Shown: in pieces, positions 2,852 through 27,426 of the stretch | Numbering within the stretch: position 1 is the stretch's first letter | How the letters are laid out: each line of letters opens with the position of its first letter | Origin: a virus | Reading direction: 5' to 3' (one strand) | DNA: 64,000 nt | IMG/VR virus record: IMGVR_UViG_3300028844_006278 | Program-made: the position numbers and the translations under genes | The notes under the pieces: generated by a model | Seen by the model: the letters and a program-made list of their open reading frames with translations, nothing else | What the model was told of the DNA's origin: nothing | Database searches by the model: none

Positions 2852-5443
2852 TTAGGATTTGGCTTGGTTATGGACTACGACGCGGTGTGCGTACTTGTCT
2901 GCCCCGATGCCAGCCAGTAGTGAGATTTGATATTTCGCGTACTCATGCGACAAAACTCTTGACTCAGCACTCATTGTCGGCTCAACAAACATACTTGCCC
3001 GCTTGTGTTGCGGAGGACCGCCTTGGATAACTACGAGGGTTATCCTACGACGAACCGGGTCATCTTCAATTGAGAAACTTGGTTTTATATCTTTAGCCAA
3101 GTCCTCCAACTCTCTCCAATAGGTAGGAGAAAGCGGAGTATAACTTGAATCCGATATAGCTCCGGACGCGGAGCACGCCGCATCGGGGGCTCCACATTCG
3201 GCTTCAGTAAAGGCGCCCCGCATAGCTGGGCACATATTATCGATGCCTGGGATCTGATCTTTGTCCTTCTTAGTGACTATCTGGGCAAAGGATTCCGGAG
3301 GCAGTAAAATCTTATGATTAGCAAGGCAGCCGAGTACATCTTCCAGGGGGAATTCCTTTAGACGCTTAATGATATCCTCGGGAAGTTCTTCGTCCGGGAA
3401 GGCTAAGGATAGATCTGACTCTTCTGGGGTGAGTCCTTCTGCTAAGATCTTCTTTTCGATCTCTGCGAGCTTAGACAGAGCATGGGCGTTATTCTTCTCG
3501 GATTCTGAGCCGACCTTGCTGATAAGGGATAGCGGAAGATACATGTTAGTAGCGTCATCTGCCGTGGGGTCTATCCCGCCGTTGCTGGCTACCTTGGCTA
3601 GTGCGAACGCTATCCTATCGGCCGGGACACGGACTTTAGATATGTCGTGGAAATGGGGCTTATCATTGATCGCATAGACCTGGTGACCTTCTTTAGTGAT
3701 CCCCAGCTTATTATACTTGAGGTGCTCGCAGTAGTTAGCGCGTGTCTTTGCCTCGTTGCCACATACCGAGCAGATATCGAAAGGAACGCCGCAGTTGTGG
3801 GTAGATATGCCGTTCGCCAAGTAGCTGTGGTGTTCCGATTCGACCTCTAAGTTAAAGACGTCTGTGCTTCTAACAGTCACGTCAATGCTAGATACTGGGA
3901 CCAGCATATGATCTCCGACTATTCTCCTAGTGCGTCTAGTTTTGGCTGTTCCTTTAATCTCAGGAATCTTGGAGCTTAGGCCGTGTAGAGCCTCTGTAAG
4001 CACCCTGCTGCACCACAGCTGATATTCGTATGTGAAACCATCCTCTGTGTTAGCTGACGCGCTTGTGACGTGCTTGATATTGTTTATCGATACAGGATGT
4101 CCAAGCATAGGGAATAAAATCTGAAGCTGGATCGCCAGCTCTCTGCTGGAAGTGCTGAAGTAGGCATTGCCTCTAACGGAGTCAACATCTGATGAGGTAT
4201 AGTACCCGCCGTCTCCCTCATGATATCCTCCAAGCAGTTCCCACAAAGCTCCGTCTACCCACTGGAATACGGAAGGATGGATGTACTTATTTTTTGCCCC
4301 TGATCCAAATAGCATTAGTAGTGTTTTAGCCAGGTCTGCATCGAACAAGTTGATTGAGAAGGCTTGGTCGCAGTCTCTTCTTTTTGACTCTACTGGAGGG
4401 TTTCTAGTCCCTATCTCCCGGCATATGTCGTTTATGCGCTCTCTTAGTGTGTCTGACGCATGACACGTAAAGCATATGCCTGAGGGGGTGCCGTCCTTAT
4501 TGAACAGCACGTAGCCCTCAGCCAAGTAGTATCCGCAAAGCCGGGCAAAAGCTTCCGTTGCGTAAGCAGGATGAGCTACTGTTCTTGATAGGGGAGTCAG
4601 TAGGAGATCTCCCTCTAAGATTTCCGACGCCTCTAGCCACTCAGCGCGGTCAATTACATCTCCATCCAAGATAAATCTGCCGCGCTTAAAGGCCTTTTCC
4701 CTACGTACCACCAAGAACGGGTGATTGGGGGTGCATTCTAGGGGAAGTCCTCCTGTGGGCTTTATGGTGTAGATCTCGATGTCATCATACGATAATGAGC
4801 GAATAGCATCTACTTTTGAGCTCTCACCTGTGTGCAGTCGAACCTCGTCGCCTACGGCCACGTCTTGAATGGGAACTTGAGACATGTCGGACATTGTGAC
4901 TAGTGTTCCGGATAGGAAGCAGCCCATTGAAAATAAGACAGGAGTATCGGACGCCAGTTTATTCAGCGAGTCTGCCCATATATCGTTATCCAGCTTGACG
5001 ACTAGTTCCCCTCTATGCATTGCCGGGTTATAGGCCTCTAGCTCTATACTTCCTAACGACTTAGCTCCTTTGCGGGAATTGTGGTGCTCCCTATACACTC
5101 CGCCGTATTTGCTGAACGTGCTGTGATACTGTGTAAGGCCGCCGTCGATCTTCTTCTGATATTCCCTGCCTGTGCGGTGATGCTCTGGGACGGTGATAGT
5201 CCCTTCCTTCTCGTTGAAGAAGTCCGCATTGTTGTTAGGGCCGTAGAACTCTCCCGCACCTGTGGTAATGAGATGCACAAAGCTCTTACCCTTCTCCGGC
5301 TTGATGTCCATATGCATAACGTATTCCGACGCGGCGATCTTCGACATCTGCATCCTATCGACCCCTCGGCTGTGCACATCTATGAGATGGGCCGCCGGGT
5401 GGTCCTGGAACCAGCTTGTAGGGAGTATGCTCTTAGGGATCAT
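2852..5443 (-). CDS. Prohead (capsid maturation) protease with intein
   Basis: Spliced extein reads VYREHHN...ELVVKLD...FSMG|CGVPFDICSVCGNEAKTRANYCEHL...FHDISKVRVPADRIA, the His / SMG / Zn-knuckle / S-x-V-x-x-P-A pattern of assemblin/HK97-type head proteases; located in head module. Confidence 0.75.
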   Translation of the reverse strand: MIPKSILPTSWFQDHPAAHLIDVHSRGVDRMQMSKIAASEYVMHMDIKPEKGKSFVHLITTGAGEFYGPNNNADFFNEKEGTITVPEHHRTGREYQKKIDGGLTQYHSTFSKYGGVYREHHNSRKGAKSLGSIELEAYNPAMHRGELVVKLDNDIWADSLNKLASDTPVLFSMGCFLSGTLVTMSDMSQVPIQDVAVGDEVRLHTGESSKVDAIRSLSYDDIEIYTIKPTGGLPLECTPNHPFLVVRREKAFKRGRFILDGDVIDRAEWLEASEILEGDLLLTPLSRTVAHPAYATEAFARLCGYYLAEGYVLFNKDGTPSGICFTCHASDTLRERINDICREIGTRNPPVESKRRDCDQAFSINLFDADLAKTLLMLFGSGAKNKYIHPSVFQWVDGALWELLGGYHEGDGGYYTSSDVDSVRGNAYFSTSSRELAIQLQILFPMLGHPVSINNIKHVTSASANTEDGFTYEYQLWCSRVLTEALHGLSSKIPEIKGTAKTRRTRRIVGDHMLVPVSSIDVTVRSTDVFNLEVESEHHSYLANGISTHNCGVPFDICSVCGNEAKTRANYCEHLKYNKLGITKEGHQVYAINDKPHFHDISKVRVPADRIAFALAKVASNGGIDPTADDATNMYLPLSLISKVGSESEKNNAHALSKLAEIEKKILAEGLTPEESDLSLAFPDEELPEDIIKRLKEFPLEDVLGCLANHKILLPPESFAQIVTKKDKDQIPGIDNMCPAMRGAFTEAECGAPDAACSASGAISDSSYTPLSPTYWRELEDLAKDIKPSFSIEDDPVRRRITLVVIQGGPPQHKRASMFVEPTMSAESRVLSHEYAKYQISLLAGIGADKYAHRVVVHNQAKS
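3794..4921 (-). mobile_element. Intein with LAGLIDADG homing endonuclease (376 aa)
   Basis: Block A CFLSGTLVTMSD, block B LECTPNHPFL, LAGLIDADG-like RLCGYYLAEG and LLGGYHEGDG, end VFNLEVESEHHSYLANGISTHN followed by Cys+1. Confidence 0.93.
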
Positions 5444-10195: not shown

Positions 10196-12466
10196 TTACA
10201 ACCTAACCGGGTCTAGCACTTTAGGAACATATGATGTGCCCTCGTGCTTGCTACTGGATCCTAACTGGGCTGCCTCTAGGAATGACTTTTTAAGGCCAAA
10301 CCCGGATAATCGTACTTTCCAGTCGGGATCGCTTCCGAGGACACCCATCGCTCTAACCACGTGCGGCTCGAATCCGGGCCCCTCTTTATGAGTAACAATA
10401 GTCTCTACCCCGTTATCTTCCAAATCTTTCGCAATCTTCGACGTTACTTTAGTACCTATAGAGTAATGCATGGTAGGCTTCTCCAGGTACGTACCTACCG
10501 CCCGCTTTGGGCGCAAAGGGTTAGAATCCTTACGTGGAATGTACTCACTAGCTAGCTGAGTATATGGAACAATGTCGGATATAGCATATCCCATAACGCC
10601 TTCCGGTCGTGTGATTTTAACTTTATCGAAGAATGCTCTGGACAATACCTCTACATTACGTCTATGCGAGGATACTCCGTTTTTTGTAAGGATCTCGTAG
10701 AACTTGTCTTGGAAGTACCGGCGGCCTTCCCCTAGCCCTTTCGCCTGCGCGATCTCTGCAGGGTTAGGAGTGCCGTCTGTGAGCACATCTCCAGAAGTCA
10801 CCTCATCTCCCACCTTTACGGTAATATTCCGTGTACCTGGAGAGTATTCTGGCTCTCCGTCTATATACACGTACTTGCCTCCTTGAGGGGCGTCTACGAT
10901 GCGTGTGACCTTGCCGTCTCGTTTAGACAGCACTGCGCCTCCCTTGAAAGTCTTAGGAACCTGGACGAATTGGTTTACCTCGTCGAACCCTGACACGTTG
11001 GACGTGTTCTCCCCTACCACTCCGCCTAAGTGCTTGGCGGATAGCGCGAGCTGCTGGGTCATTGGCTCTGATAATACTCGAGCAGACTCGATACCTATGT
11101 ATGCTCCCATAGGCGGGAACTTATTCTGATCTCGTTTTCCGGAACACATCTGACATACGCCTTCCGGCATCTGGCAGGTTAGTAGTGACCGGATCATTAC
11201 TCGCTTGCCTCTCAGGGTAGCGAGATCTTTACGGGATACGGCAGTATTTCTGGAGATGCCTTCAGTGTCCCGAGAGATGACTGATCCTAGTATCTCGGGG
11301 TCATCTCCATCTACCATAAGACCTACCCCATCTGCCCCGCAGTCCTTCCCGGTAACTCGAATGTGCTGCGACATAGCTGCGAGCTGTTTACCTAGAAATC
11401 CTGTCTTGGCCGTTGCGAACTGTACGTCTGAGTTGCTGACGATAAGGCCGTTCGCTAGTACGAACATATGATCGGGGTGATCTACTTCCAGGTCGTACGT
11501 AGGAGTTAGACCGAGGGGCTCCGGATCACTCTGCTTCTTTAAGAATCCTGCTTTGGTCCACTCGTCCTTATCTAAGACAAGGGTCTTGTCGCTAACTCTA
11601 CAGCGAGTCGCCTCTCCGATTGGATTCATATCTCCGCCTCGGGTCGCCAGTATCTTGTGATCCGGGGTAGCCTCTATGTATATGGAGGCTCCGCTACCGA
11701 AGTGGTATCTGTAGACGACTCTTACGCCGTTGTAGTGCCTGTCGATAACCTGTACTGGGAATGTATCTCCGGCAGGGCCGGATCCGAGCACCCATTCGCC
11801 GGGCCCTATGTCCTCTATACGCTTAACAGACGTGTCCGCCATCCGCACCAGAGTGTTGGGAGACAAGCAGTATCCTTTTCGCGACGCGTACGACCCTGCC
11901 CAGAACTCCGGACCAGTCACTCCTTCTCCGTATCCGTGCATTCCAGGGATAGGTACAGGGCGATCTCTGTGGTCTGCTACTAACATGTCGCCGAACAGGA
12001 GCTGCGTGAGCTGGGTCGGTGATCCGCGTAGTCCTTGCTTCACCATCTCCCCGTATGCGTTTGGACGAGTCTCCAGTTCGGCTAGTAGCGTCTTCTGGAT
12101 AGTCGGCATAGCCTTCTGCATAGTCGACATGATCTGCTCGTCCTTCTGCGCTGAAGTCAAGGCGTTGCTCTGAGAGATGGCCCGTATCTTCTCTTGCAGC
12201 TGCTTACGATATGCCTTTGTCTTCGGTGGCAGCCTAAGGTCTGTAAGCCGCAACGAGGATGTTCCTCCGTACTCAGTCGCAACTACCCGGGAGATATCGG
12301 AGAGTCTTTTCAGCACCGTCACGTAATCGTCCGGGTGCTTCTCTGCTAACTCTTGGAAGAACGCCGACGAAGTCTTCTTGTTTAAGACTCGTCCGGGCTC
12401 TCGCATAGACTCGGGGATCGCCTGGTCTATGAGTATCCTCCCTAGCGTTGTACGGGCAGCGGGCAT
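10196..12466 (-). CDS. DNA-directed RNA polymerase, beta' C-terminal half (with mini-intein)
   Basis: Start probably MPAARTTLGR at 12466. TTLGRIL; bridge helix SRKGY|SDVQFATAKTGFLGKQL; Zn site DCG...RSLLTC...GVCQMC; trigger loop EPMTQQLALSAKHLGG; VKVGDEV..GDVLTDGTPNPAEI; HRRNVEVL. All align to bacterial RpoC motifs. Confidence 0.92.
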   Translation of the reverse strand: MPAARTTLGRILIDQAIPESMREPGRVLNKKTSSAFFQELAEKHPDDYVTVLKRLSDISRVVATEYGGTSSLRLTDLRLPPKTKAYRKQLQEKIRAISQSNALTSAQKDEQIMSTMQKAMPTIQKTLLAELETRPNAYGEMVKQGLRGSPTQLTQLLFGDMLVADHRDRPVPIPGMHGYGEGVTGPEFWAGSYASRKGYCLSPNTLVRMADTSVKRIEDIGPGEWVLGSGPAGDTFPVQVIDRHYNGVRVVYRYHFGSGASIYIEATPDHKILATRGGDMNPIGEATRCRVSDKTLVLDKDEWTKAGFLKKQSDPEPLGLTPTYDLEVDHPDHMFVLANGLIVSNSDVQFATAKTGFLGKQLAAMSQHIRVTGKDCGADGVGLMVDGDDPEILGSVISRDTEGISRNTAVSRKDLATLRGKRVMIRSLLTCQMPEGVCQMCSGKRDQNKFPPMGAYIGIESARVLSEPMTQQLALSAKHLGGVVGENTSNVSGFDEVNQFVQVPKTFKGGAVLSKRDGKVTRIVDAPQGGKYVYIDGEPEYSPGTRNITVKVGDEVTSGDVLTDGTPNPAEIAQAKGLGEGRRYFQDKFYEILTKNGVSSHRRNVEVLSRAFFDKVKITRPEGVMGYAISDIVPYTQLASEYIPRKDSNPLRPKRAVGTYLEKPTMHYSIGTKVTSKIAKDLEDNGVETIVTHKEGPGFEPHVVRAMGVLGSDPDWKVRLSGFGLKKSFLEAAQLGSSSKHEGTSYVPKVLDPVRL
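11432..11869 (-). mobile_element. Mini-intein (146 aa, no endonuclease)
   Basis: Starts CLSPNTLVRMAD, block B IEATPDHKIL, ends TYDLEVDHPDHMFVLANGLIVSN followed by Ser+1; removal restores the bridge helix. Confidence 0.9.
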
Positions 12467-12470
12467 AGAG

Positions 12471-13028
12471 TTATCTAAACTTATTATCGATGATGTTACC
12501 AAACACGGTGCCGAGGAACGGCACTGCCTGCCCTACCTCTATCCCCCTATCCTTCCAAGTCCTACCGTCTATCTTACCTGTAAGATGTTTTGCTATAGAC
12601 ATGAGCTTGGCCTTTCTAGTAGGGTCCTTTTCAGACGTGGCGGCTTCGGTAAGCACTTGGCGGCGAGCGATCAGCGCATTTCGGTGCTTTAGATTAGGTG
12701 CCCGAGTCCTTGCTTTTTTAGCATTGCCCTCGATATCTCCCTGTAGGATTCCTCTCTGGGAGTTGATAAAATCTATCTCTTCCTTAGAGATATCTGACGT
12801 GGGGTTGCCTAGAACGTAGTCTTTATATTGACCTAAGCTGGATATACCCTTCCGTCTTCCCTGCATGAGCTCCCCTGCTGCAAGACCAACGCCTGCTCCG
12901 ACGCCACCTCCAATCAGATACTTGTTGAAGGTCCTATCGGACTCGGGCACGAGCTTGCGGGTTAGCGCGACTCCGATGACAGCGCCGAGCGGGGTCGTAA
13001 CTAGTGATGGGTTGATTGGATCCTTCAT
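12471..13028 (-). CDS. Hypothetical glycine-zipper protein
   Basis: LGAVIGVAL and LIGGGVGAGVGLAAG hydrophobic segments. Confidence 0.55.
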   Translation of the reverse strand: MKDPINPSLVTTPLGAVIGVALTRKLVPESDRTFNKYLIGGGVGAGVGLAAGELMQGRRKGISSLGQYKDYVLGNPTSDISKEEIDFINSQRGILQGDIEGNAKKARTRAPNLKHRNALIARRQVLTEAATSEKDPTRKAKLMSIAKHLTGKIDGRTWKDRGIEVGQAVPFLGTVFGNIIDNKFR

Positions 13029-13033
13029 CTGGA

Positions 13034-13834
13034 CTACTCCGCGTACTGGCCGAGGGCCCGCAGTACTTGAATAAGGGCGTTATCTTGGTCGGCGGCCTCT
13101 AGCTGCTGCGGCATCTCCGTGGGGACCGGCATGGGCGGCAGTTCTGCCATAGGGGGAAGGGCCTCTGGCATGGGCATCTCGCCTGCGGGCGGAAGTGCGC
13201 TTAGGGAGTCCGGTGTCAGATTAGCGACGCTTGGAGGGAGCGCAGCCTCCCCTCCCTCTGGAACTGTCTCCGGAACAGAGACGCCCATGGTATTAGCCAT
13301 CTGGACAAGCAGAGACTCTAGCTCATCGATGCGGGACTCCAGCTCCTTATTGGTGACTCTGGAAGATTCCTCCTCCTTTGCAGGGGGCTGGGAGGCAGCG
13401 GCGGCCTCGATCAGCATCTGCAGATCCTGTGCCGACAGGGTAACAGGCTGTGCTTCCATGCCTGCCATCCCGGGATCTCCTGGACCGGCAGCTGGCATAC
13501 CCATCATACTAGGGTCCATCGGAGGCATCGGCGGTGCGCCGCCCATCATACTAGGATCCATCATGCTAGGGTCCATCGGAGGCATCGGCGGTGCGCCGCC
13601 CATCATGCTAGGGTCCATCGGAGGCATCGGCGGTGCGCCGCCCATCATACTAGGATCCATCATGCTAGGATCCATCGGAGGCATCGGCGGTGCGCCGCCA
13701 GCTAGTGCGGGATCCTCTGCAGGTGGCAGGGCACCCATCTGTCCCGGTACTGCTGCTGCTGGCGCGGGAGCTGGGGGGGCGTATGCCTCCTTGGTTAGGT
13801 GCATTACTTTATTTAGTAGGTCTTTATTCAACAT
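13034..13834 (-). CDS. Pro/Met-rich low-complexity protein
   Basis: TKEAY near N-terminus, repeats of GGAPPMPPMDPSMM, short coiled coil. Confidence 0.65.
   Translation of the reverse strand: MLNKDLLNKVMHLTKEAYAPPAPAPAAAVPGQMGALPPAEDPALAGGAPPMPPMDPSMMDPSMMGGAPPMPPMDPSMMGGAPPMPPMDPSMMDPSMMGGAPPMPPMDPSMMGMPAAGPGDPGMAGMEAQPVTLSAQDLQMLIEAAAASQPPAKEEESSRVTNKELESRIDELESLLVQMANTMGVSVPETVPEGGEAALPPSVANLTPDSLSALPPAGEMPMPEALPPMAELPPMPVPTEMPQQLEAADQDNALIQVLRALGQYAE
13500..13699. repeat. Coding tandem repeat (42- and 57-bp units)
   Basis: Four near-identical copies of ctagg(g/a)tccatcggaggcatcggcggtgcgccgcc, with an optional 15-bp DPSMM unit. Confidence 0.9.
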
Positions 13835-13874
13835 CGGGATATCTTATGCCTCTTAGGTGATTCGGATATTGCTA

Positions 13875-14405
13875 TTAATTTGAAGTGTACCCCGATATAA
13901 ATGCGGAAACATTTATTGTCGGCATTTGAGAAGCGCACTTCCATTTTCTGCGTGCCTTACATATTCTCTTATCAGGAGTCTTTGAGCAATCTATATTATG
14001 CATCTTGCGCTGTCCATCGGATCTAGCGCAGAAGCTCTTTCTTCTCTTAGACGCCGCGCCCCCCTTTTTAACTTTACCTGTGACAGGCGCTTTTAAGTTA
14101 CTGCCTGGGTTTTCTCTCTCGTAAGACTTACGGCCAGCTTCGTTTAGGCCGCCTTCTCTATTCTGTCCCTTCTTACGAGTCCATGCAGGGCTCTTCTTTT
14201 TCTTATCCTTAGCCTCTTTGAATGCTGTCACGAACCTTACAAATTCGTTATCGCTTGAGGCTTTCTTCGCAAACTCCTCCAACTTATCTTCGGACATGCT
14301 GTTGGCGATCTCTTTTACCTTATCTGAAGCGTCCGGGCTCTCTCCTCGCTTATATGCTAGAGCCGCTCCAAAAAGTTTACGCTGATTTTCAGATTTAGCA
14401 GGCAT
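13875..14405 (-). CDS. Small basic protein, DUF3008-like plus DUF6321-like domains
   Basis: Start MPAKS at 14405 (GAGGAG upstream). MPAKSENQRKLFGAALAYKRGE..MSEDKLEEFA resembles DUF3008; SPAWTRKKGQNREGGLN..RRKSFCAR..KWKC resembles DUF6321 (from memory). Confidence 0.6.
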   Translation of the reverse strand: MPAKSENQRKLFGAALAYKRGESPDASDKVKEIANSMSEDKLEEFAKKASSDNEFVRFVTAFKEAKDKKKKSPAWTRKKGQNREGGLNEAGRKSYERENPGSNLKAPVTGKVKKGGAASKRRKSFCARSDGQRKMHNIDCSKTPDKRICKARRKWKCASQMPTINVSAFISGYTSN

Positions 14406-14406
14406 C

Positions 14407-15639
14407 TTACTTCTCTCCTCCATTGAACATATCTCTTGATATCCTTAGCTTAGATCCTGGGTCGTATCCGGGAAAATCTTCTCTCCGGCTGTTTATACCC
14501 ACTGCATCTGCCAAGGACTGTACGAATGTGTTGGAGTTTACTCCTCGGCCTAGAATGTTCTTCCATATGGGTGGGTACATGTAGGGATTCTCCCTTTCGT
14601 TATATCTGTAGGCTTCCCCAGCCTTTAGTACTTTACTTATGATGTCGTCGGTGCTCTTCCCTTGGTTGACAGATCTGCTGATGTGCGTCTCCCAGAACTT
14701 AGGTAACTTGGGATTCTCCTGTGTTGAGAAGTACTCTCGAAAAGCCTTTACATCGTTTCCGTAGTTCCTATGGTACCGGAGCCTGCGTCTGCTGAAGAAA
14801 CTAGGTTTAACATTGTATGCTCCTACTATGATGGCAGGAGTGTCTCCGTACTTATCTACCGCATTGCCGAATCTATTGGGATCTTGTGGAACCAATATGA
14901 AGAACTGGTGTCTGCCTATAGGGGCCTTGCCGACGCCTGTGTCCATAGCGACTCTTCTCGATCCTATGTATATGCCGGGATTAAGGTTCTTGCTGTGTAC
15001 TAGTTCCTTGCCTTTCTTCTTCGCCGCAGACTTGAATAGCTTCGTAGGCAGGCGGATGTCGTTCCCTATATCGCCCTTGGGGAAATCCTGCCTGCGCTTA
15101 TCTATGCCTGCCACGTCGGCTAAGGTCTGTGCGAAGGTGTTAGAGTTAGGCCGCATTCCGAGGAGATTGGGAGCGAGGGCCGGGTAATACACTGGGCGCT
15201 TCGCTGTAGATTTCTCGTACGCCTTGCCTGCAGTCAGCATCCTACGGATAGTGTCGTCAATATCTTTCTTTGGGATAATGGGCCGGCTCAGTACGGGCTT
15301 CCAAAAGGCCTTAGACTTGGGGCTGCCTGAGTGTGTGTCTGTGTACTCTCGGATGGCTGCTAGATCGTCTGGCTCGTTCTGTCGGTACTTGAGACGGGGC
15401 CTGGATAGGACCCTTTCCCCCGGGACCCGGTATCCTCCGACCAATATTCCGCGATTGCCGTTGCCTAGATCGACGTCCAGTCCTTTGAACTTCTCGGGCT
15501 TATTAGGCACCATCACGAAGAATTGGTGGCGGAAGTAGGAGGGGTTCGCCGGGCTGTTCGCATTGGCTACTCGGCGCGTGCCTAGGTATATGCCTGGAGC
15601 AAGCGTTCCGGTTTCTATGAGTTTATCTTGCTGCTTCAT
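14407..15639 (-). CDS. Tandem two-domain protein, permuted papain-like fold candidate
   Basis: Two ~195-aa repeats, each PGIY.G.RRVA..RHQFF..VP...Y.P....LG...NSNTF.Q.LAD..GI..RR.DFP..D.G. Confidence 0.6.
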   Translation of the reverse strand: MKQQDKLIETGTLAPGIYLGTRRVANANSPANPSYFRHQFFVMVPNKPEKFKGLDVDLGNGNRGILVGGYRVPGERVLSRPRLKYRQNEPDDLAAIREYTDTHSGSPKSKAFWKPVLSRPIIPKKDIDDTIRRMLTAGKAYEKSTAKRPVYYPALAPNLLGMRPNSNTFAQTLADVAGIDKRRQDFPKGDIGNDIRLPTKLFKSAAKKKGKELVHSKNLNPGIYIGSRRVAMDTGVGKAPIGRHQFFILVPQDPNRFGNAVDKYGDTPAIIVGAYNVKPSFFSRRRLRYHRNYGNDVKAFREYFSTQENPKLPKFWETHISRSVNQGKSTDDIISKVLKAGEAYRYNERENPYMYPPIWKNILGRGVNSNTFVQSLADAVGINSRREDFPGYDPGSKLRISRDMFNGGEK

Positions 15640-15646
15640 ATGTCTA

Positions 15647-18600
15647 CTATTCCAGTATGGTGATGGGGTCGTCTATTGCTATCTTACCTGACCTATACGC
15701 CTTTCTTGCATCGGCCACGGTATTGAATACAGCGGCTGTCTTATCTGCAGGAGCCTTGGTAGCTAGATATAGCCCCTGCAGATATTCATTGGAAAGCTTA
15801 TACGATGCCTGTCCTGATCGGGCGGAGATTAGATTGCGGTCCGGCATCATGCGGTCGACCACTTGGGATACCGCCTCGTCCGAGACAGGAACGGTGAATG
15901 ACGCTGTGTCTCCGTCATAGTCCATGGCGAATGGCCCTACAATGGCCGGAGGCACTTGGACGGTAGATCCTTTTACGAGTACCGGCCAGAATCCCATGAC
16001 ACTGTACTTGTGTAAGGTAGGCGCCCGATTTAAGATGACAGGGCGCTTGGTGATAACAGACTGCAACGACTTGTACGCTAGGGGTGAGTGATCTTTGACC
16101 GCTGTTGCAGCCTCTGTGGCAGGGACGCCCTGTCGCACAAGGTCTCGGATAACAAACGGCTCGTATAGATTCCAAGCAAGCTTCTCTGGGATGCCCGCTT
16201 GGTTGAGTAGAAGGGACGGATTAGGTGCGACTACGCCTAGTCCCGACATATCGATATTAGTCCCTAGAACTCGGCGCTGAATGAAGCCTGTCTTCGGACT
16301 TCCTTTTCCGAATATGTGCGAAAGGATGCCCTTTACGTTCTTCTGTACGAGCTGATCCTTCTTCGGATCGGATACACCGATGAGAGCCTTGTAGCTATCC
16401 CATAGATCTCTTCGAGCATCGTTACGCATATCTGCCGGTAGTCCCTCTGTCTCGTTATAGTCGGAGATAGACTCCACTAGAGACTTATACAGGTAGTTCG
16501 GGTCGGCCACCATCGTCATCCCTCCCTGTGCTGATATAGGACGGAACCGAGGCGGAAGTACCGGAACTCGGGTCATCATGAAGTCCGATGGCTTCACCTT
16601 GTTAGTTTCGAAAGCATGTAGGAATCGGAACTTTTTTACAGCATCGTCGCGCTTAGATCTGATGCCGTGCTTTATCTCGTGCAGCGCCTTGGCCTTTTCT
16701 GCCTTGACGTCGATTCTACCTAGCTTGTCGGCTAGAGCGTCCTCTCCGGAGGCCACTAAATCCTCCATCTCGGTTCTTTTTAGGCCCAATATACGCCGTA
16801 TAGGGTCTACCATGATAGGGTTAGGCATGGCCGTAGGGAGGTCAATGTATGCCCATCTGTCGCCGTTAGCCGAGCTTCCGGTAGCGTCGGGGTCAAATAG
16901 GCCTCCTGGGATGGGCTTAAGACCTTTTGCTGTATATGTATCACCGGTAGAGATCTTTCTATTTCCGGTAAGGTCTTTTGCCTGTTGGTTGGTCATAGAG
17001 AATATGTCGTCGGAGAACGCGCCTTCCGACAGATGTACTCCGCCTGCTCTGAGGAGGTCCTTAAACTTCTCGTAGACTAGCGGAGTCTTCGGCATGGTAG
17101 GGGTCTGTCCCAGCTTCAGCTGACGCCAGAACATATCGTTCTTCTGCCCCTTGATGAGCTTCATGTCCTTGAGGACCTCTGTCGCCCCGTGTGCTAAAAG
17201 AGCCTCTTGGTACATCTTGCCTAGGTGTTTAGCGCCTGTCTTGCCTCCCTTGGCCGGCTGGTCCTCTGCTGTGTACTTAGCCTGTGATCTGGACTTGCCT
17301 TTACCTTCGGACGTATGCTGCATCTTGTAGAAGTACGTCACTCCGGTAAATATCTGGGGGATCTTCTTCCCGGTTCTCGGATCTACTAGGTCCTCTCTAT
17401 CGGATAGTCTATTCTTCTGGAGCTCGCTATGGGTGAACTCTATCATGTCTTCGTCTGAGAATCCCGGTAAGACGTAGGGCTTGCCTGTCTTCTCTGCGAT
17501 CTTGCCTAGCTGGGCCTCTAGCTTCTGTGCCGGGTTAGTTCTGCTGACTACTCCCAGGGGAGACAGTATGACGTCCATCTTTCTGCCCTTAGGGTCCGTC
17601 GGCATCTCAGAGTCCTTGATCACCTTAGAGATTACGCCCTTGCCGCCGTGCCGCATGGCCAGTTTATCTCCTACGCCCATGGGTATGTTCGTACGGACAT
17701 TGATGTAGTACTGCTCTTTGCCTTCGGTCGCGTCTGTGACTACTCCGGGGTGTCTCTTCTCCCACAGCACTGCCTTGTTGGAGCGCATGCGGCGGCCAAG
17801 GGATCCACCGGCATGCGGATCCTGCTCGGACATCGCCAGAGCAAGCGGATCTCCATATCGTACGACCGATCCGGGCTTTATCATCCCCGTCGTTTCGTCG
17901 ATCTTAGCGAGCTGCTCTTTATTGAAGGCGGCGGGGAAATTAGCTCTGAACTTATCCTTAGAGACAGACAGGTCCTTTTCCTTCTTGAACTTAGCATGAT
18001 ACATATGCTCTGACGTGAGCTTCTTAGCTGCCGTCTCGGATATAACAATGGCATCCTCGAACACCAGTCCGTCATAGTTCCAGTACGCTACGCGGAGATT
18101 AGTCCCGAGGGCCGCTACTCCCTTATCGCTGGTGAAGTTACTGGCTGCGAGCATGTCGCCCTTCTTCACCTTGTCTCCGGCCTTTACTAGGGCCTTGTTG
18201 CGGATGTACGTGGATCGGGCATACGGAAAGTTCTCGTACAGATCCACGGATCCCTCGGATCCGTCCGCATAGGTTAGGTCTACTCTATTCTTGCGGACGG
18301 CCTTAACTGTGGCGTCCCTAGAGGCGCGCACTGCTCCGAGATGGCCGCCTATGCGTCTCTCCATGCTGGTGCCGCTTCCGGGATCGGTAGTTCTTACTAG
18401 CGGAGCCTCTCTGCTCACCAGAGGAAGTGCCTGGGGCCCAAATTTCGAGCCCATTAATAAACGCATTCCCTTATCTCCGGATTTCAGAGGAACCAGGTTA
18501 GCCCCATCGCTAAACATATCATCGTTGTTCGGTACGACGTAATCGATGTCTTCACGCTTTACCCATGCCATGCCCTTATTAGGCACCATCGCAATTACGT

Positions 18601-20095
18601 AGGGGTCTGTGTTCTTCTGGAATCCCGGCCATGTCAGGTTCTTTCTAGCGGCCTCTCGGATCCCTACCCACTTCTCCTTACCTGTACGGGCATCTATGAA
18701 TTTAGAGTACAGCTGACGGTCGGGGCCTCTACGTACGTTGCGCGACATCTTCATATCTACGCCGATCTTTAAGCTTTCCGGAGCACGAACTGGATCAATG
18801 TAATTCAGGTACGTGGGCTGTACGCCTCGGGCCTCTTTAGGGACAACATCTACGCTAGTCATCGCGCCCTCGCCTAGGCGTAAGATCCGCTGGTTCTGGT
18901 CGTACATGTCTAGCGGATTGATCTCTTCGATGGGCTGAGCCATCCCTGAGCTGACAAACAGATGCTGTACGTGTTTATCGAGAGGGGCGGTAGGTACTGC
19001 AGATATGTCTCCGTTCTTCTTTGAGACTTTCCATAGGATCTGTCGCAGCACTCCGTTCTGGTCGTTGGCTACCTTGTCACTAAGGAAGTCCGATATATCC
19101 CAGACGTCCTGGAACTCTAACGAATCCCTACTGTCGGAGTCTTCGTCTCCTTTGGCAACCCGCAGGATCTTCCCGGTAGCCGACATAATAGCCTCTGGAG
19201 AAGCGTTGGTGTGATCCTCTCCGAGAGTAACCCTAGTGACCCGGGGGTTGAGTCCGATTTTACCGAACTCTTCAGTAAGTCCTTCCCGGACCGTGTCGTT
19301 GTATAGGGAGGACACTGTCGACCCTGTCTTCTGCTGTAAGAGCTGTGCAACTACAGGCCCTGCCTTGGCGTCCAGTGCTATGGGCGCTGCCGGTGCATCT
19401 GGCTCTGGGGCAACTGCGAATCCTTTTAGGAAGTTGACTGCGTAGGGAGACTTCTCTAAGGTCCTGTTCTTCTCCGCGATGTCTTTTCCCCACTGCGCCT
19501 CGATATCTTCGTGCTGCTTACCCATGGCCCGGAGGATAGGATATAGCGGAAGCTTACGGTTCTTATACTTCATGTAGAAGAAAGACGTCGACGGCTCCAT
19601 GTATATACGGAAAGAGGGCCCGGACCGTGGAATAGCGTTGAACTGGGCCTCTATGTTCGAGTCATCCGTTACGCGCGTGTATATTCCTGAGTTGAGACGA
19701 AGCTGCTTCGCTACAGTGTATTCCGTGCCGTTACGTACGTACGTGCCTCTGTCTGTAAGGTACGGCACGTTTATGATAGTCTTCCGGCCAGTTCTGCCTA
19801 GCGACTTGCCTGTCTCCTTATCGATAACCTCCCACCGACCTGTCACCTTATCGCTAAGTGTCCGGCCCTCTAGGATCGCGTCCTTCTGCTGGGACAGCGA
19901 GTATCTACCTTTAGGCTTAGCGTACGCGACGTCTGTGGCCTTTAGCATGTATCTGTCGTTTTCGGAAAACGCTGATTGCTCTACTGAAGACAGGACCTTC
20001 TTTCGAAGATCGGTTCGTACTGAATCGTAGTCCGTATAATTTAGGAGACCGGTACCATCTGAGAAGTCCGGAGCAGGAGAAGGCATCTCAGGCAT
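15647..20095 (-). CDS. DNA-directed RNA polymerase, beta fused to beta' N-terminal half
   Basis: Beta motifs GTYVRNGTEY..KQLR, GDKLAMRHGGKGVIS, DVILSPLGVVSRTN, YKMQH..KSRS, QPAKGG. Then in the same ORF beta' motifs GGLFD, VPVLPPRFRP, DPNYLY, GFIQRRVLG..DMSG, LNRAPTLH and catalytic AMDYDGD. Confidence 0.95.
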   Translation of the reverse strand: MPEMPSPAPDFSDGTGLLNYTDYDSVRTDLRKKVLSSVEQSAFSENDRYMLKATDVAYAKPKGRYSLSQQKDAILEGRTLSDKVTGRWEVIDKETGKSLGRTGRKTIINVPYLTDRGTYVRNGTEYTVAKQLRLNSGIYTRVTDDSNIEAQFNAIPRSGPSFRIYMEPSTSFFYMKYKNRKLPLYPILRAMGKQHEDIEAQWGKDIAEKNRTLEKSPYAVNFLKGFAVAPEPDAPAAPIALDAKAGPVVAQLLQQKTGSTVSSLYNDTVREGLTEEFGKIGLNPRVTRVTLGEDHTNASPEAIMSATGKILRVAKGDEDSDSRDSLEFQDVWDISDFLSDKVANDQNGVLRQILWKVSKKNGDISAVPTAPLDKHVQHLFVSSGMAQPIEEINPLDMYDQNQRILRLGEGAMTSVDVVPKEARGVQPTYLNYIDPVRAPESLKIGVDMKMSRNVRRGPDRQLYSKFIDARTGKEKWVGIREAARKNLTWPGFQKNTDPYVIAMVPNKGMAWVKREDIDYVVPNNDDMFSDGANLVPLKSGDKGMRLLMGSKFGPQALPLVSREAPLVRTTDPGSGTSMERRIGGHLGAVRASRDATVKAVRKNRVDLTYADGSEGSVDLYENFPYARSTYIRNKALVKAGDKVKKGDMLAASNFTSDKGVAALGTNLRVAYWNYDGLVFEDAIVISETAAKKLTSEHMYHAKFKKEKDLSVSKDKFRANFPAAFNKEQLAKIDETTGMIKPGSVVRYGDPLALAMSEQDPHAGGSLGRRMRSNKAVLWEKRHPGVVTDATEGKEQYYINVRTNIPMGVGDKLAMRHGGKGVISKVIKDSEMPTDPKGRKMDVILSPLGVVSRTNPAQKLEAQLGKIAEKTGKPYVLPGFSDEDMIEFTHSELQKNRLSDREDLVDPRTGKKIPQIFTGVTYFYKMQHTSEGKGKSRSQAKYTAEDQPAKGGKTGAKHLGKMYQEALLAHGATEVLKDMKLIKGQKNDMFWRQLKLGQTPTMPKTPLVYEKFKDLLRAGGVHLSEGAFSDDIFSMTNQQAKDLTGNRKISTGDTYTAKGLKPIPGGLFDPDATGSSANGDRWAYIDLPTAMPNPIMVDPIRRILGLKRTEMEDLVASGEDALADKLGRIDVKAEKAKALHEIKHGIRSKRDDAVKKFRFLHAFETNKVKPSDFMMTRVPVLPPRFRPISAQGGMTMVADPNYLYKSLVESISDYNETEGLPADMRNDARRDLWDSYKALIGVSDPKKDQLVQKNVKGILSHIFGKGSPKTGFIQRRVLGTNIDMSGLGVVAPNPSLLLNQAGIPEKLAWNLYEPFVIRDLVRQGVPATEAATAVKDHSPLAYKSLQSVITKRPVILNRAPTLHKYSVMGFWPVLVKGSTVQVPPAIVGPFAMDYDGDTASFTVPVSDEAVSQVVDRMMPDRNLISARSGQASYKLSNEYLQGLYLATKAPADKTAAVFNTVADARKAYRSGKIAIDDPITILE

Positions 20096-24079: not shown

Positions 24080-25561
24080 TTACTCCCCTACAATGCTTGA
24101 GAGGAAGCCCTTGGCCATGTTACTGAGTTGTCTAGATTTGCTGTCTTGCTGTTTCTGTATCTCTTCCATTTTTTTGCGGCGGGCGGTGTTTAGCTCGTTT
24201 TTTGGCGCGTTCGCGTTGTACTCCTCTTTATCCTTAGCTGTAGGAGTTGGGTGCATTACTTTAGGCGAGGGAGGGGCGTTATACTCCTGTTTGGCCTGAC
24301 TGACCATAGCTCTGGCCGCCGCGACTGGGTTGTAACTACTGGCGTTGTACCCGGCGTCTAGTATCCTGTATAGTGCGGAGGACTGGTTAGGAGCCGGAGT
24401 AGGAGCCGGAGTAGTAGCGGGAGGCGCTGCCGGATGCGGCGGTGCTGGAGCCGGAGGGGCTGGCGCGGGAGTGGTAGCTGGAGGGGCTGGAGCCGGAGGG
24501 GCTGGCGCGGGAGTGGTAGCTGGAGGGGCTGGTGCAGGAGCTGGCTCTGGTGCGGGGGGAGGCGTTGGAGCCGGGGGCTCTGGTGCAGGAGGAGCAGCGG
24601 GAGCAGCAGCAGCGGGAGCAGCAGCAGGAGTATGAACAGGGACCATGTTTTTGTACCTGTTCTCTAAGTCCGTTAGCCTATCCTGGGCTTTAGCAATCTG
24701 CGCACCGTAGTCCGTGCCGGATGATTCGAGCAGTCCGGCGGGCAGGGCTGTTCCGGCTTCTCTGAGACTATCTAGTGATTTTAGGTGACCGATATTCGCC
24801 TGTTCTTTTGCTACAGCTGCACGGTTACGGGCGATATTATCTACATTCGCGGTGCTTAGCCCGGGGGCAGTTATATTGAGGAGTTCTTTCTGCTCCGCCA
24901 AGGTTCTTTTGAATACATCCTTAGTGTAGGCGGTATGCGCAGCCGGTAACTGATTCTTCATAAGATCAGTCTTCTGCTCACTGGACAAGGCGGATTGATT
25001 ATTAGCTAGCTCTAGGGCTGTACTGTACACGGCGGCCGGGGCTGTACTGATTGCCGCTATAGCCTCCGCATTCTTGTCCGGATCCTTCGCGAGAGCTTCT
25101 CGTACCTTGTCTAGATTGCGAGTAGCGATCGAGTCCTGTACGAACTTAACAGCTTCCGTTTTACCTACGCCGAAGAAGTCCATAACCGCGAAGGCAAGTG
25201 TACCGATAAGTGTGCCGGCCAGTGCGCCTTTACCGCCTCCTAAGAGACCTCCGATGACTCCTCCGACGCCGGCTCCGCCCAGGGCCCATCCTATCTTCTG
25301 CGCAGTCTTATCTGACGATACCTGATACATGGTGTCGGACATGATAAGCGAGCTCGCCCATTGCCGAATCTGAGACAGCTTTTCCGGAGTATTATAGCCT
25401 GCTTTGTATGCCGCTCGGGTGAATTCGTCTCCCTCGACTTGAGGCACCATGTCTGCAGGTACCGGTGCTGGAGGCGGCGGGACCGCCCCTGTATTTGCCC
25501 ATTTCTGGAAGAATTCCTCGGCCTCCTCGGCCGATAGTCTAGTATGAGGTAATTTGATCAT
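24080..25561 (-). CDS. Glycine-zipper protein with Pro/Ala/Thr-rich stalk
   Basis: WALGGAGVGGVIGGLLGGGKGALAGTLIG after DKTA; PAPPATTPAP repeats at about 24390-24630. Confidence 0.65.
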   Translation of the reverse strand: MIKLPHTRLSAEEAEEFFQKWANTGAVPPPPAPVPADMVPQVEGDEFTRAAYKAGYNTPEKLSQIRQWASSLIMSDTMYQVSSDKTAQKIGWALGGAGVGGVIGGLLGGGKGALAGTLIGTLAFAVMDFFGVGKTEAVKFVQDSIATRNLDKVREALAKDPDKNAEAIAAISTAPAAVYSTALELANNQSALSSEQKTDLMKNQLPAAHTAYTKDVFKRTLAEQKELLNITAPGLSTANVDNIARNRAAVAKEQANIGHLKSLDSLREAGTALPAGLLESSGTDYGAQIAKAQDRLTDLENRYKNMVPVHTPAAAPAAAAPAAPPAPEPPAPTPPPAPEPAPAPAPPATTPAPAPPAPAPPATTPAPAPPAPAPPHPAAPPATTPAPTPAPNQSSALYRILDAGYNASSYNPVAAARAMVSQAKQEYNAPPSPKVMHPTPTAKDKEEYNANAPKNELNTARRKKMEEIQKQQDSKSRQLSNMAKGFLSSIVGE

Positions 25562-27426
25562 TGTACAGGTACCTGTCCTTGTCGCGCGAGCTGCACACCT
25601 TGTGTAGCCGCTTGGTTTTCGAGTTCGCTGAGTCTAGCTTTGACTTGGGCATACAGTGCCTCGTCCTGGTGCTTAAGGTCGGATAGCGTCCTACGTCGTG
25701 TAAGCGGGTCCGCTACGATAAGCTCTTGGGCGATCTGGTCTGCGTTGGTCAATAGGTCGTCGATGGTTGCTCCAACCCCTGTAGCCCCTCCCGTTCCTGC
25801 GGAGGGAGGCATAGCGGCAGGAGGAGCTGCTGCTCCTGCGGGAGCACCGGCCTGCTGCTCTTGGGCAGCCATAGCGGCCTGCTCTTCCTGCATAAGGACC
25901 TGCTGTCCTGGGCCGGGCACGGTGACTGCTTGTACATTGGCCATCTGGTTGTCCATCTGGCGCTGGCGCTCTTCCATCTCTTCGGCAGCCGCTTCTTCCT
26001 GATCGAGCAGCTTCTTACGCTCTTGGTCGTAGTCTATGCCGATTGTCTGTAGAGCGGTGTCTTCAGATATCTTACCCGCGGCGGCGAGCTGCATCTTGAG
26101 ACTGCGGATCTCCGGATCCTCGTATAGGGATACTGGTTTGACGAATGCGCGGACAGTTTCCCAGCTTAGTAGATCGCCCTGCTTATTCACTACCCACGTT
26201 GCCCACTTGTTGAGCTGGTTAGCGAAATGCTGCCACGTCCGTTCGAACATCTTAAAGCCGATAAGAGGTCCTGCAGCTGCTTGGAATCCTGTAATGGATG
26301 ACTTGTAGAACTCAGGAGGAATACCCATAGAGTGTAGGAGCCGCATCTCGAAGTGCTCCATGATGTCTACAGGTATAAGGCTCTTTGCCTCGCCTCCCAG
26401 TGTCTGGTACTCCAAAGGATAGGGGAGGAAGTTCCAGTCCGTAGGATTTCTACGGTGGCGCTGGATCATACCCATTACAGATCCGACAAAGTCCTTCATA
26501 TTCATGTTGAGCATAGGATCCTTAGATCCGCCTGCGCTCGGAGGAGAGAACACGCGAAACGGCATAAGGTACTCTACCAGGATAGTCTCCACGTACTTAT
26601 CCAACATCGTCACTAAGACGGCCGTTTCAAAGTCCGCCATGAATGGGGGAAGTCCCCATCCCTTAAGATTAGGGATAGAGCAGGCAGCTACTGGGAAGGA
26701 CATGTGATATAGCTCGTCGTTCGCAAACTCGAACTCGCTTCCTTTACAGATAGCCTCTACGACCTCCCAAGGAGTGTCTTCAAGAAAGATGAGGTCTCCT
26801 CTAAGAACAGGGGCGGACAAAGAATCGTACTGTTTTAGGTCTATGCTGTACTTGGTGCGGCCTGACATCGGATGCTGATGGATGCGCATAAACTGCGGCG
26901 GCCAGCGGGTGATGACAGGCTTAGACTTCTCTTTAGGAAGCAGTGTATCTTCGTGCGGTAGCTGGCCCTTATAGGAGCAGGATGCGCACTCTCCGATGAA
27001 GCGGCAGTTCTCGAACTTAATCTTGTTTTTGAAATGCTTTAGAGGCGCACGCAGGCTACATCGGGGGCAGATAAGCTGGCGAAGGAACGGGCGGTGGATC
27101 GACGTGAATGAGTTCCCGAATGCCATGAAGTCGTCGCCTATTACAGCCAGCTCTTCGATCATGTCGAAGTTTTCGGCAATCGCATCGAGGTAGACCTTAC
27201 GGCTACGGAAGTCCAGATCGTCTCCCTCTACATCCAGCTCGGTCATAAAATACCGAACAGCCGAGGAGATAGACTGGGAGTACATGCCGTGATGCATCCA
27301 CAGTTCCTCTGCCCATGCAAAGGTCTCTCGGATAGTCTTAGGATAGACTCGCCGGGTCAGCTTATTAAAGGGGGACGTTACATCCTTGTCCCATCGAAGG
27401 CCGGCGTCTTGTATACCTGAAGACAT
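25558..27426 (-). CDS. Portal protein (putative) with Zn-ribbon insertion
   Basis: 622 aa; DFMAFGNSF, ELYHM..WGLPP, MPFRVF, LEYQTLGGE, LHSMGIPPEF are portal-like; CPRC...CASC insertion; acidic Gln-rich tail. Confidence 0.7.
   Translation of the reverse strand: MSSGIQDAGLRWDKDVTSPFNKLTRRVYPKTIRETFAWAEELWMHHGMYSQSISSAVRYFMTELDVEGDDLDFRSRKVYLDAIAENFDMIEELAVIGDDFMAFGNSFTSIHRPFLRQLICPRCSLRAPLKHFKNKIKFENCRFIGECASCSYKGQLPHEDTLLPKEKSKPVITRWPPQFMRIHQHPMSGRTKYSIDLKQYDSLSAPVLRGDLIFLEDTPWEVVEAICKGSEFEFANDELYHMSFPVAACSIPNLKGWGLPPFMADFETAVLVTMLDKYVETILVEYLMPFRVFSPPSAGGSKDPMLNMNMKDFVGSVMGMIQRHRRNPTDWNFLPYPLEYQTLGGEAKSLIPVDIMEHFEMRLLHSMGIPPEFYKSSITGFQAAAGPLIGFKMFERTWQHFANQLNKWATWVVNKQGDLLSWETVRAFVKPVSLYEDPEIRSLKMQLAAAGKISEDTALQTIGIDYDQERKKLLDQEEAAAEEMEERQRQMDNQMANVQAVTVPGPGQQVLMQEEQAAMAAQEQQAGAPAGAAAPPAAMPPSAGTGGATGVGATIDDLLTNADQIAQELIVADPLTRRRTLSDLKHQDEALYAQVKARLSELENQAATQGVQLARQGQVPVQ

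What the first reader, a model, noticed from the sequence alone, without database searches (positions are those of the whole stretch)
10196..20095. Phage RNA polymerase with a beta-beta'N fusion chain and a separate beta'C chain
Seen: one 1482-aa ORF carries all beta motifs and continues in frame into beta' through the catalytic loop, so both double-psi barrels are on one compact chain. The loop reads AMDYDGD instead of NADFDGD, and the beta' N-terminal Zn ribbon is missing (GGLFDPDATG..WAYIDL, no Cys). The rest of beta' (bridge helix, trigger loop with His, second Zn site) starts at TTLGR four genes downstream. Known: Helicobacter and Wolbachia fuse full beta-beta'; cyanobacteria split beta' just after the TTxGR motif; archaea split further on; phiKZ-type phages split both subunits. 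None matches this layout. Inference: a distinct, bacterial-like, possibly alpha-independent enzyme, probably virion-packaged since it lies between portal and protease genes.
Basis: partly seen in the sequence, partly recalled or inferred. Interest (0 to 1): 0.88.

Follow-up and report, generated by a model that had tools for sequence, protein, structure and literature searches.

The report
Two-chain phage RNA polymerase, beta fused
A large, mostly uncultured group of tailed phages builds a bacterial-type RNA polymerase from only two chains (whole beta joined to the front half of beta', and the back half of beta' made separately, here interrupted by an intein). No paper found here describes this layout, and it can be tested in phages that are already in culture.

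Summary
ORF 15647-20095 (-) is a complete beta joined end to end to beta' up to just past the catalytic DxDGD loop, without the N-terminal Zn ribbon. ORF 10196-12466 (-) supplies the rest of beta': bridge helix, second Zn site and trigger-loop His.

- The beta'C gene carries a 146-aa mini-intein inside the bridge helix.
- The complete 164.9-kb genome encodes two sigma-70-like proteins but no alpha or omega.
- The layout is not unique. More than 150 protein clusters (50% identity) from metagenomes share it, as do Salmonella phage Arash (gp206/gp216) and Vibrio phages D69, D148 and D181.

Published Arash virion proteomics detected both chains and a sigma (gp10, whose homologue is encoded here). 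This supports packaging, though not conclusively.

AMDYDGD is ordinary variation within the family. The split lies about 60 residues upstream of the cyanobacterial one. The family forms one group outside the sampled bacteria and differs from the published mReC phage polymerases, which have separate whole beta and beta'.

No paper found describes this layout.

Verdict: a real new variant of a known kind. Independence from alpha is untested.

The parts
15647..20095 (-). Gene for the fused beta-beta'N chain (1482 aa, P0001)
   Evidence: Open frame. Pfam Rpb2_6, Rpb1_1 and Rpb1_2 on one chain. NCBIfam best hits are the Helicobacter/Wolbachia beta/beta' models, rpoB and rpoC.
17024..20095 (-). Beta module, residues 1-1024. 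It corresponds to RpoB 51-1339 of 1342.
   Evidence: Family profile against Salmonella RpoB. The motif MRHGGKGV at residues 814-821 (17633-17656) matches the E. coli GRHGNKGV active-site lysine motif (the E. coli motif is from memory).
16997..17023 (-). Nine-residue spacer (residues 1025-1033) between the end of beta and the start of beta'
   Evidence: Same length in 61 aligned family members, including Arash and D69. High-confidence, structured region in the AlphaFold2 model.
15650..16996 (-). Beta'N module, residues 1034-1482. It corresponds to RpoC about 30-553: clamp, lid region and the catalytic double-psi barrel.
   Evidence: Profile alignment to RpoC 30-65 and 160-551. Foldseek best matches are the cyanobacterial gamma subunit and plastid RpoC1.
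16838..16906 (-). Short Cys-free loop (GGLFDPDATG...WAYIDL) in place of the beta' N-terminal Zn ribbon
   Evidence: 21-23 residues with no Cys in 60 of 61 members. Rhizobium phage Y65 and Cobetia phage Carin-5 beta' keep the CxC...CxxC ribbon.
15908..15928 (-). Catalytic loop AMDYDGD (residues 1390-1396)
   Evidence: The three Asp are invariant in the 59-member alignment. The first two positions vary across the family.
17789..17818 (-). Shortened flap-tip region (PHAGGSLGRR). Arash and D69 have a longer segment here.
   Evidence: Family alignment and profile alignment to RpoB 880-905.
12471..15639 (-). Four intervening ORFs (410, 182, 266 and 185 aa) that are not conserved next to the polymerase genes in Arash or D69
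   Evidence: ORF list. No tblastn match to the Arash or D69 loci. Only DUF3008/DUF6321 and a weak DUF3750 hit.
10196..12466 (-). Gene for the beta'C precursor (756 aa from the ATG at 12466, P0122). After splicing it is 610 aa.
   Evidence: Pfam Rpb1_4, Rpb1_5 and Hint. rpoC_TIGR 164 bits. The profile aligns to RpoC 572-944 and 1187-1286. Intein-free relatives are 605-613 aa.
11432..11869 (-). Mini-intein of 146 aa (Cys1 ... TPDH ... VSN, followed by Ser+1), with no homing endonuclease. It sits inside the bridge helix, between RKGY and SDVQFATAKTG.
   Evidence: TIGR01443 intein C-terminal region above its cut-off and a Hint hit. Clean insertion relative to 67%-identical intein-free homologues and to RpoC. 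Coordinates.
11021..11347 (-). Second Zn site (KDCG; LLTCQMPEGVCQMC) and trigger-loop His (LSAKHLGG)
   Evidence: Residue-by-residue alignment to a solved beta' chain and to Salmonella RpoC. Coordinates.
25558..27426 (-). Portal gene, upstream in the same head module
   Evidence: tblastn to the Arash portal gp204 (E 6e-52) and to its D69 counterpart (E 1e-58).

Best explanation
The two genes encode the whole catalytic core of a bacterial-type multisubunit RNA polymerase. It belongs to a large, mostly uncultured lineage of tailed phages with genomes mostly of about 130-230 kb.

Chain 1 is a complete beta joined through a nine-residue spacer to beta' residues about 30-553 (E. coli numbering). 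It therefore carries both double-psi barrels and the clamp, but it has lost the beta' Zn ribbon.

Chain 2 is beta' from about residue 568 onward: bridge helix, second Zn site, trigger loop and jaw. In this phage it is made as a precursor. A 146-aa mini-intein must splice out to form an intact bridge helix.

Inferred steps:
- The enzyme uses phage sigma-70-family factors. Two are encoded elsewhere in the genome.
- It is loaded into the capsid with one of them and delivered with the DNA to transcribe early genes.
- Because it is the only polymerase in the genome, it also serves later transcription with the other sigma.
- The covalent beta-beta'N link stands in for part of the assembly role of alpha, which the phage does not encode.
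For: Shown here:
- Domain content and mapping of both chains.
- Conserved junction and Zn-ribbon loss in 61 members.
- Catalytic Asp triad conserved.
- Confident single-chain model of beta-C plus beta'N: pLDDT 87.6, pTM 0.75, with the junction structured. Its best fold matches are the cyanobacterial gamma subunit and bacterial beta'.
- Intein boundaries and signature residues.
- The best 150 clusters (50% identity), all with E at or below 5e-103, carry the fusion or are fragments of it. More than 100 clusters (90% identity) of 1445-1530 aa carry both Pfam families.
- Only one polymerase set is present in the complete genome.
- No alpha or omega here, and no alpha in Arash or D69.
- Two sigma-like ORFs.
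- The 238-aa sigma-like ORF is a full-length homologue of Arash gp10, with a conserved neighbour.

From the literature: in Arash virions, Gp206 (the fused chain) had the most spectra of any protein. Gp216 and sigma Gp10 were also detected (PMC10585845).

Gene order: portal followed by the fused gene is conserved in Arash and D69.
Against: - Packaging rests on one homologue at 29% identity. In that proteome 116 of 272 proteins were detected, including ribonucleotide reductases, and the authors themselves allow for lysate carry-over.
- The sigma assignments are weak. The 238-aa ORF passes the Pfam cut-offs for regions 3 and 4 only narrowly, and the 164-aa ORF is below the cut-offs.
- The flap tip that docks sigma region 4 is shortened in this sub-clade.
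- Absence of an alpha gene does not show independence from alpha, because host alpha could be recruited.
- Splicing of the intein is inferred. Its penultimate residue is Ser, not the usual His.
Confidence: 0.7

Rival explanations
1. The same enzyme is not packaged. It is made after infection and transcribes only middle and late genes, while host RNAP redirected by phage factors reads the early genes. Its detection in Arash virions would then be carry-over of an abundant protein.
For: The Arash proteome lists many non-structural enzymes, and its authors raise this possibility. Other phage lineages with bacterial-type RNAP (Rhizobium phage Y65, Cobetia phage Carin-5) keep these genes in the replication module.
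Against: The fused chain gave more spectra than the major capsid protein in Arash. The gene sits in the head module next to the portal in three distant genomes. The gp10-like sigma lies among structural genes in both genomes.
Confidence: 0.2
2. The phage core is not self-sufficient. It assembles on the host alpha dimer, and perhaps omega, like a cellular core, and the fusion has another cause such as co-packaging stoichiometry.
For: The enzyme is close to bacterial RNAP in sequence: 279 bits to RpoC and up to 217 bits per stretch to RpoB. Helicobacter RpoBC has the same end-to-end junction yet still uses alpha (established knowledge, not tested here).
Against: A virion-delivered enzyme would have to find alpha after entry. 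phiKZ/AR9-type phage polymerases work without alpha (PMC7598289). No alpha is encoded in three complete genomes.
Confidence: 0.3
3. The fusion is an artefact (assembly or frameshift error), or the contig is bacterial contamination.
For: None found.
Against: Independent assemblies give the same 1482-aa frame at 90% identity. The junction is conserved in 61 members and in three cultured phages. The record is a complete phage genome with terminal repeats, a portal and a terminase.
Confidence: 0.01

Closest known systems
Salmonella phage Arash gp206 + gp216 (OQ632216; PMC10585845) and Vibrio phages D69, D148 and D181
   Same: Same family and same two-chain layout: 1525/1527 aa plus 606/609 aa. The match covers 97-99% of the query in one piece at about 29-30% identity. 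The portal lies just upstream, phage sigma genes are present, and no alpha is encoded. In Arash both chains and sigma gp10 were detected in virions.
   Different: Those records and the paper call the chains simply 'beta' and 'beta''. No intein is present in Arash or D69 beta'C. In D148 and D181 the fused gene is interrupted by a homing-endonuclease gene. They form the deepest branch of the family in the beta'N tree.
Helicobacter / Wolbachia RpoBC (NCBIfam PRK09603, PRK14844)
   Same: Beta is joined end to end to the N-terminus of beta'. The spacer is about 5 residues in Helicobacter anseris and 9 here.
   Different: The cellular fusions keep the whole beta' on the same chain (about 2,840-2,900 aa). 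Here the chain stops after the catalytic barrel and lacks the Zn ribbon. That the cellular enzymes also keep the Zn ribbon and work with alpha and omega is from general knowledge, not tested here.
Cyanobacterial and plastid gamma (RpoC1) / beta' (RpoC2) split
   Same: Beta' is cut in the same inter-domain region, after the catalytic barrel. The best fold matches of the beta'N part are the gamma subunit and RpoC1.
   Different: Gamma is not fused to beta. By model coordinates the cyanobacterial cut lies about 60 residues further on: the fused chain ends near position 554 of the 619-position gamma model, and beta'C here includes TTLGR.
phiKZ / AR9-type virion and non-virion RNA polymerases
   Same: Phage-encoded multisubunit polymerases without alpha or omega. 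One form is packaged in the virion, and beta' is split after the barrel (PMC7598289).
   Different: [quoted passage not shown] Sequence similarity is marginal, about 20 bits. Here there is one set, two chains and sigma-like genes.
mReC phages (Weinheimer & Aylward 2020), Kleczkowskaviridae (Rhizobium phage Y65) and Cobetia phage Carin-5
   Same: Tailed phages with a bacterial-like, deep-branching beta and beta'.
   Different: All mReC contigs in the part of the table that was read list separate beta (about 900-1520 aa) and beta' (about 900-1390 aa) ORFs. Y65 and Carin-5 have an unsplit beta' with the Zn ribbon, placed in the replication module. They fall outside the fused family in the tree.

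Membership tests
Bacterial-type two-barrel multisubunit RNA polymerase core | Beta barrel with the conserved lysine motif, and beta' barrel with the DxDGD metal loop | tested here: met
   Rpb2_6 and Rpb1_2 hits. MRHGGKGV and AMDYDGD are present. The Asp triad is invariant in the family alignment.
Bacterial-type two-barrel multisubunit RNA polymerase core | Bridge helix, trigger loop with His, and second Zn site in the C-terminal half of beta' | tested here: met
   Alignments to a solved beta' chain and to Salmonella RpoC. The bridge helix is whole only after intein removal.
Bacterial-type two-barrel multisubunit RNA polymerase core | Alpha dimer and omega as assembly subunits | tested here: not met
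   No PF01000, PF01193 or PF01192 match in the complete genome, while all 14 control genomes match. No alpha in Arash or D69. Use of host alpha cannot be excluded.
Bacterial-type two-barrel multisubunit RNA polymerase core | N-terminal Zn ribbon of beta' | tested here: not met
   Replaced by a Cys-free loop of 21-23 residues in 60 of 61 members.
Helicobacter-type RpoBC fusion | Whole beta and whole beta' on one chain | tested here: not met
   The chain ends at about RpoC 553. The rest of beta' is a separate gene 3.2 kb downstream.
Cyanobacterial/plastid split beta' | Free gamma (RpoC1) chain, with the cut at the cyanobacterial position | tested here: not met
   The beta'N part is covalently joined to beta. 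The cut is about 60 model positions earlier.
phiKZ/AR9-type phage RNA polymerase | Beta split into two or more chains, and no sigma factor | tested here: not met
   Beta is whole and fused. Sigma-70-like ORFs are present here and in Arash and D69.
phiKZ/AR9-type phage RNA polymerase | Packaged in the virion | not testable with these tools
   Only indirect evidence: homologues were detected in Arash virions, and the gene lies in the head module.
Class 1 mini-intein | Cys/Ser at position 1, TxxH block B, C-terminal Asn, and a nucleophile at +1 | tested here: met
   C200, TPDH, N345 and S346 of P0122. TIGR01443 scores above its cut-off. The penultimate His is Ser here.
Class 1 mini-intein | Protein splicing activity | not testable with these tools
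   Needs expression of the precursor and a check for the 610-aa product.
Sigma-70 family (the 238-aa ORF outside the window, genome 72133-72849) | Regions 2, 3 and 4 in order | tested here: inconclusive
   Regions 3 and 4 are just above the Pfam cut-offs. Region 2 is seen only through the FliA/SigF NCBIfam models, below their cut-offs. The ORF is a homologue of the annotated Arash sigma gp10.

The most novel reading that the evidence does not exclude
A widespread phage lineage carries a minimal, self-assembling, sigma-dependent bacterial-type RNA polymerase made of two chains. The covalent beta-beta'N link replaces the alpha-dimer assembly platform. The holoenzyme (about 2,090 residues of core plus a sigma) is packed in the capsid and injected to start transcription without any host subunit.
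Probability: 0.4. Interest if true: 0.8.

Novelty: new variant of a known kind. Interest (0 to 1): 0.64.

Why it matters
All cellular RNA polymerases assemble on an alpha-type platform. The only natural exceptions studied so far, the phiKZ/AR9 enzymes, are very divergent, cut into many pieces and lack sigma.

This family stays close enough to bacterial RNAP to align almost end to end. It appears to keep sigma factors, yet encodes no alpha or omega, and it re-partitions the two large subunits in a way not described before.

It offers a direct test of what alpha is needed for. It also offers a compact enzyme for structural work, and a second, independent case of a multisubunit polymerase that may travel in a capsid.

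Cultured hosts exist (Salmonella Typhimurium ATCC 14028 for Arash; Vibrio for D69), so the questions can be tested now.

The inteins that recur in the bridge helix and trigger loop add a natural set of conditional-splicing sites in the catalytic centre.

Tried and rejected
- DNA search of phage records (megablast, 14 kb): no match.
- PHROGs and Pfam on 20 neighbouring ORFs: almost nothing, and no protease, capsid or alpha-like hit.
- Mapping the split against phiKZ gp74/gp80: the matches were too weak (about 20 bits) to place the cut.
- Literature searches for the layout, using phage Arash, fused beta/beta', rpoBC phage, mReC, and Vibrio phage virion RNAP: no description found. The library lacks most subscription journals, so this is not proof of absence.
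- Idea that the family equals the published mReC clade: rejected, because the mReC rows of its table that were read list separate beta and beta' ORFs.
- Idea that short hits (about 525 aa) are free beta'N chains: rejected. They start inside the beta C-terminus, so they are fragments.
- No complex prediction was run.
- The beta'N tree is a quick search on 54 rows without Firmicutes, Cyanobacteria or Thermus, and it is unrooted. It shows that the family is one group outside the sampled bacteria, not where it came from.
Full report
**The record and the two genes.** The window is part of a complete 164,893-bp virus record with direct terminal repeats. On the minus strand, ORF 15647-20095 gives a 1482-aa protein with no stop. 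Pfam places Rpb2 domain 6 at residues 629-950, Rpb1 domain 1 at 1159-1264 and Rpb1 domain 2 at 1345-1413 of this single chain. The top NCBIfam matches are the Helicobacter/Wolbachia beta/beta' models, then rpoB and rpoC. ORF 10196-12502 carries Rpb1 domains 4 and 5 plus a Hint module. Four ORFs lie between the two genes.

**Where the parts begin and end.** I built a profile from 61 family members and aligned it to Salmonella RpoB and RpoC, which share E. coli numbering.
- The beta part runs from RpoB 51 to 1339 of 1342.
- Nine residues later the chain continues with RpoC 30-65, then 160-551.
- Beta is therefore whole and is joined end to end to beta'. Helicobacter RpoBC has the same topology, with a spacer of about 5 residues.
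- The spacer has the same length in all 61 sequences, including phages Arash and D69.
- Between GGLFD and YIDL the family has 21-23 residues and no Cys in 60 of 61 members, where E. coli has about 95 residues including the Zn ribbon.
- The second chain starts at RpoC 572 (TTLGR). The cut therefore lies between about 553 and 568.
- On the cyanobacterial gamma model the fused chain ends near position 554 of 619, so the cyanobacterial cut is about 60 residues further on.
- The four Cys of the second Zn site and the trigger-loop His are present.
- AMDYDGD is one of many family variants (NADFDGD, GADFDGD, AMDFDGD, NMDFDGD). The three Asp are invariant.

In beta'C, the sequence RKGY is followed by CLSPNT...TPDH...LIVSN and then SDVQFATAKTG. 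Intein-free homologues at 67% identity, and RpoC itself, join RKGY directly to S/ADVQF. This is the start of the bridge helix. TIGR01443, the intein C-terminal region model, scores above its cut-off.

The element is 146 aa (window 11432-11869) and has no endonuclease domain. The spliced product would be 610 aa, the usual length in the family.

Across 120 beta'C relatives, large insertions cluster at two profile positions. One is about 200-210 (the bridge helix). The other is about 330-340, next to the trigger loop, where E. coli has its SI3 insertion. Many fused chains also carry inteins or homing endonucleases.

The likely start of the gene is the ATG at 12466, as in the database gene call.

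**How common the layout is.**
- A word-indexed search returned more than 100 clusters (90% identity) of 1445-1530 aa that carry both Rpb2_6 and Rpb1_2. Many sit on contigs of 130-233 kb.
- An exhaustive profile-free search with residues 990-1482 returned 150 best clusters (50% identity), all at E 5e-103 or better. In every one the match sits at the C-terminal end of a long protein, or the protein is a fragment that begins inside beta.
- In cultured phages the same two-chain layout is present in Salmonella phage Arash (gp206 of 1525 aa, gp216 of 606 aa) and Vibrio phage D69. In Vibrio phages D148 and D181 the fused gene matches in two pieces, with a homing-endonuclease gene annotated under the match.
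- In the scan of one genome per prokaryote species, only a single 3.7-kb MAG contig among the 80 best loci kept carried a family member.

**Relation to other polymerases.**
- The family profile scores 279 bits on Salmonella RpoC, 235 on Rhizobium phage Y65 beta', 102 on Cobetia phage Carin-5 beta', and about 20 on phiKZ gp74/gp80.
- Y65 and Carin-5 keep an unsplit beta' with the Zn ribbon, in the replication module.
- A quick maximum-likelihood tree of the beta'N region (54 rows) puts the fused family on one side of a branch (support 98). Bacteria from about 12 phyla are on another (99). Arash and D69 are the deepest family branch. The tree is unrooted and lacks several phyla.
- The published mReC phages list separate beta and beta' ORFs in every row of the part of the table that I read, so they are a different arrangement.
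- An AlphaFold2 model of residues 620-1482 is confident (pLDDT 87.6, pTM 0.75) and the junction is structured. Its best fold matches are the cyanobacterial gamma subunit, plastid RpoC1 and bacterial beta'.

**Partners.**
- The genome has one polymerase set only.
- Profiles for alpha (PF01000, PF01193) and omega (PF01192) find nothing here, although they hit all 14 control genomes. Alpha is also absent from the Arash and D69 records.
- Two sigma-70-like ORFs lie outside the window.
  - A 238-aa ORF (genome 72133-72849) has regions 3 and 4 just above the Pfam cut-offs and FliA/SigF-like matches.
  - A 164-aa ORF is ECF-like but below the cut-offs.
- The 238-aa ORF is a full-length homologue of Arash gp10 (E 1e-15), and the neighbouring structural gene is conserved.
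- The flap tip, which docks sigma region 4 in bacteria, is shortened in this sub-clade but longer in Arash and D69.

**Packaging.** The Arash paper reports that Gp206 gave the most spectra of all virion proteins (3516). Gp216 gave 1210 and sigma Gp10 gave 467. However, 116 proteins were detected in all, and the authors allow for carry-over of abundant proteins (PMC10585845). The gene order of portal followed by the fused gene holds in Arash and D69. Here the portal is 5.4 kb upstream in the same co-oriented block. I could not identify a protease.

**Reading.**
- Shown: a conserved two-chain core with all catalytic elements, a bridge-helix intein in this phage, sigma-like genes, and no alpha or omega genes.
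- Inferred: splicing, use of the phage sigmas, packaging and delivery, and self-assembly without alpha.
- I found no paper that describes the layout, though the library is incomplete.
- I rate it a new variant of a known kind. It is widespread, and it can be tested in cultured phages.

Noticed in passing
window 2852-5443 (-): This 863-aa ORF holds a second intein, with a LAGLIDADG endonuclease (about residues 172-550). Its flanks match the Arash virion structural protein gp222 and D69 VPHD69_0270. It is not the major capsid protein.
   Followed up: partly
genome G000:C1 72133-72849 (-) and 159702-160196 (-), both outside the window: Two sigma-70-like ORFs. The first is the homologue of Arash gp10, which was found in virions. 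The second is ECF-like and below the family cut-offs.
   Followed up: partly
window 17789-17818 (-): The beta flap tip is much shorter here and in close relatives than in Arash, D69 or E. coli. Docking of sigma region 4 may therefore differ.
   Followed up: partly
Vibrio phages D181 and D148 (OZ196140, OZ196545), fused polymerase gene: The match comes in two pieces, with a homing-endonuclease gene annotated under the match. In these records the fused gene appears to be interrupted by a mobile element.
   Followed up: no
beta'C family (P0122-P0241): Large insertions, mostly inteins, recur at two profile positions: the bridge helix (about 200-210) and next to the trigger loop (about 330-340). 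The second is where E. coli has its SI3 insertion.
   Followed up: partly
window 30799-32301 (-): This 500-aa ORF has a strong mannosyltransferase match (PF11051, E 3e-37) inside the phage genome.
   Followed up: no
window 13875-14423 (-): A 182-aa ORF between the two polymerase genes combines DUF3008 and DUF6321. PHROGs shows the same C-terminal module at the ends of many otherwise different phage proteins.
   Followed up: no
locus L013 (MAG contig RGVZ01000317.1): This was the only family member among the 80 best loci kept from the scan of prokaryote species genomes (43% identity, on a 3.7-kb contig).
   Followed up: no
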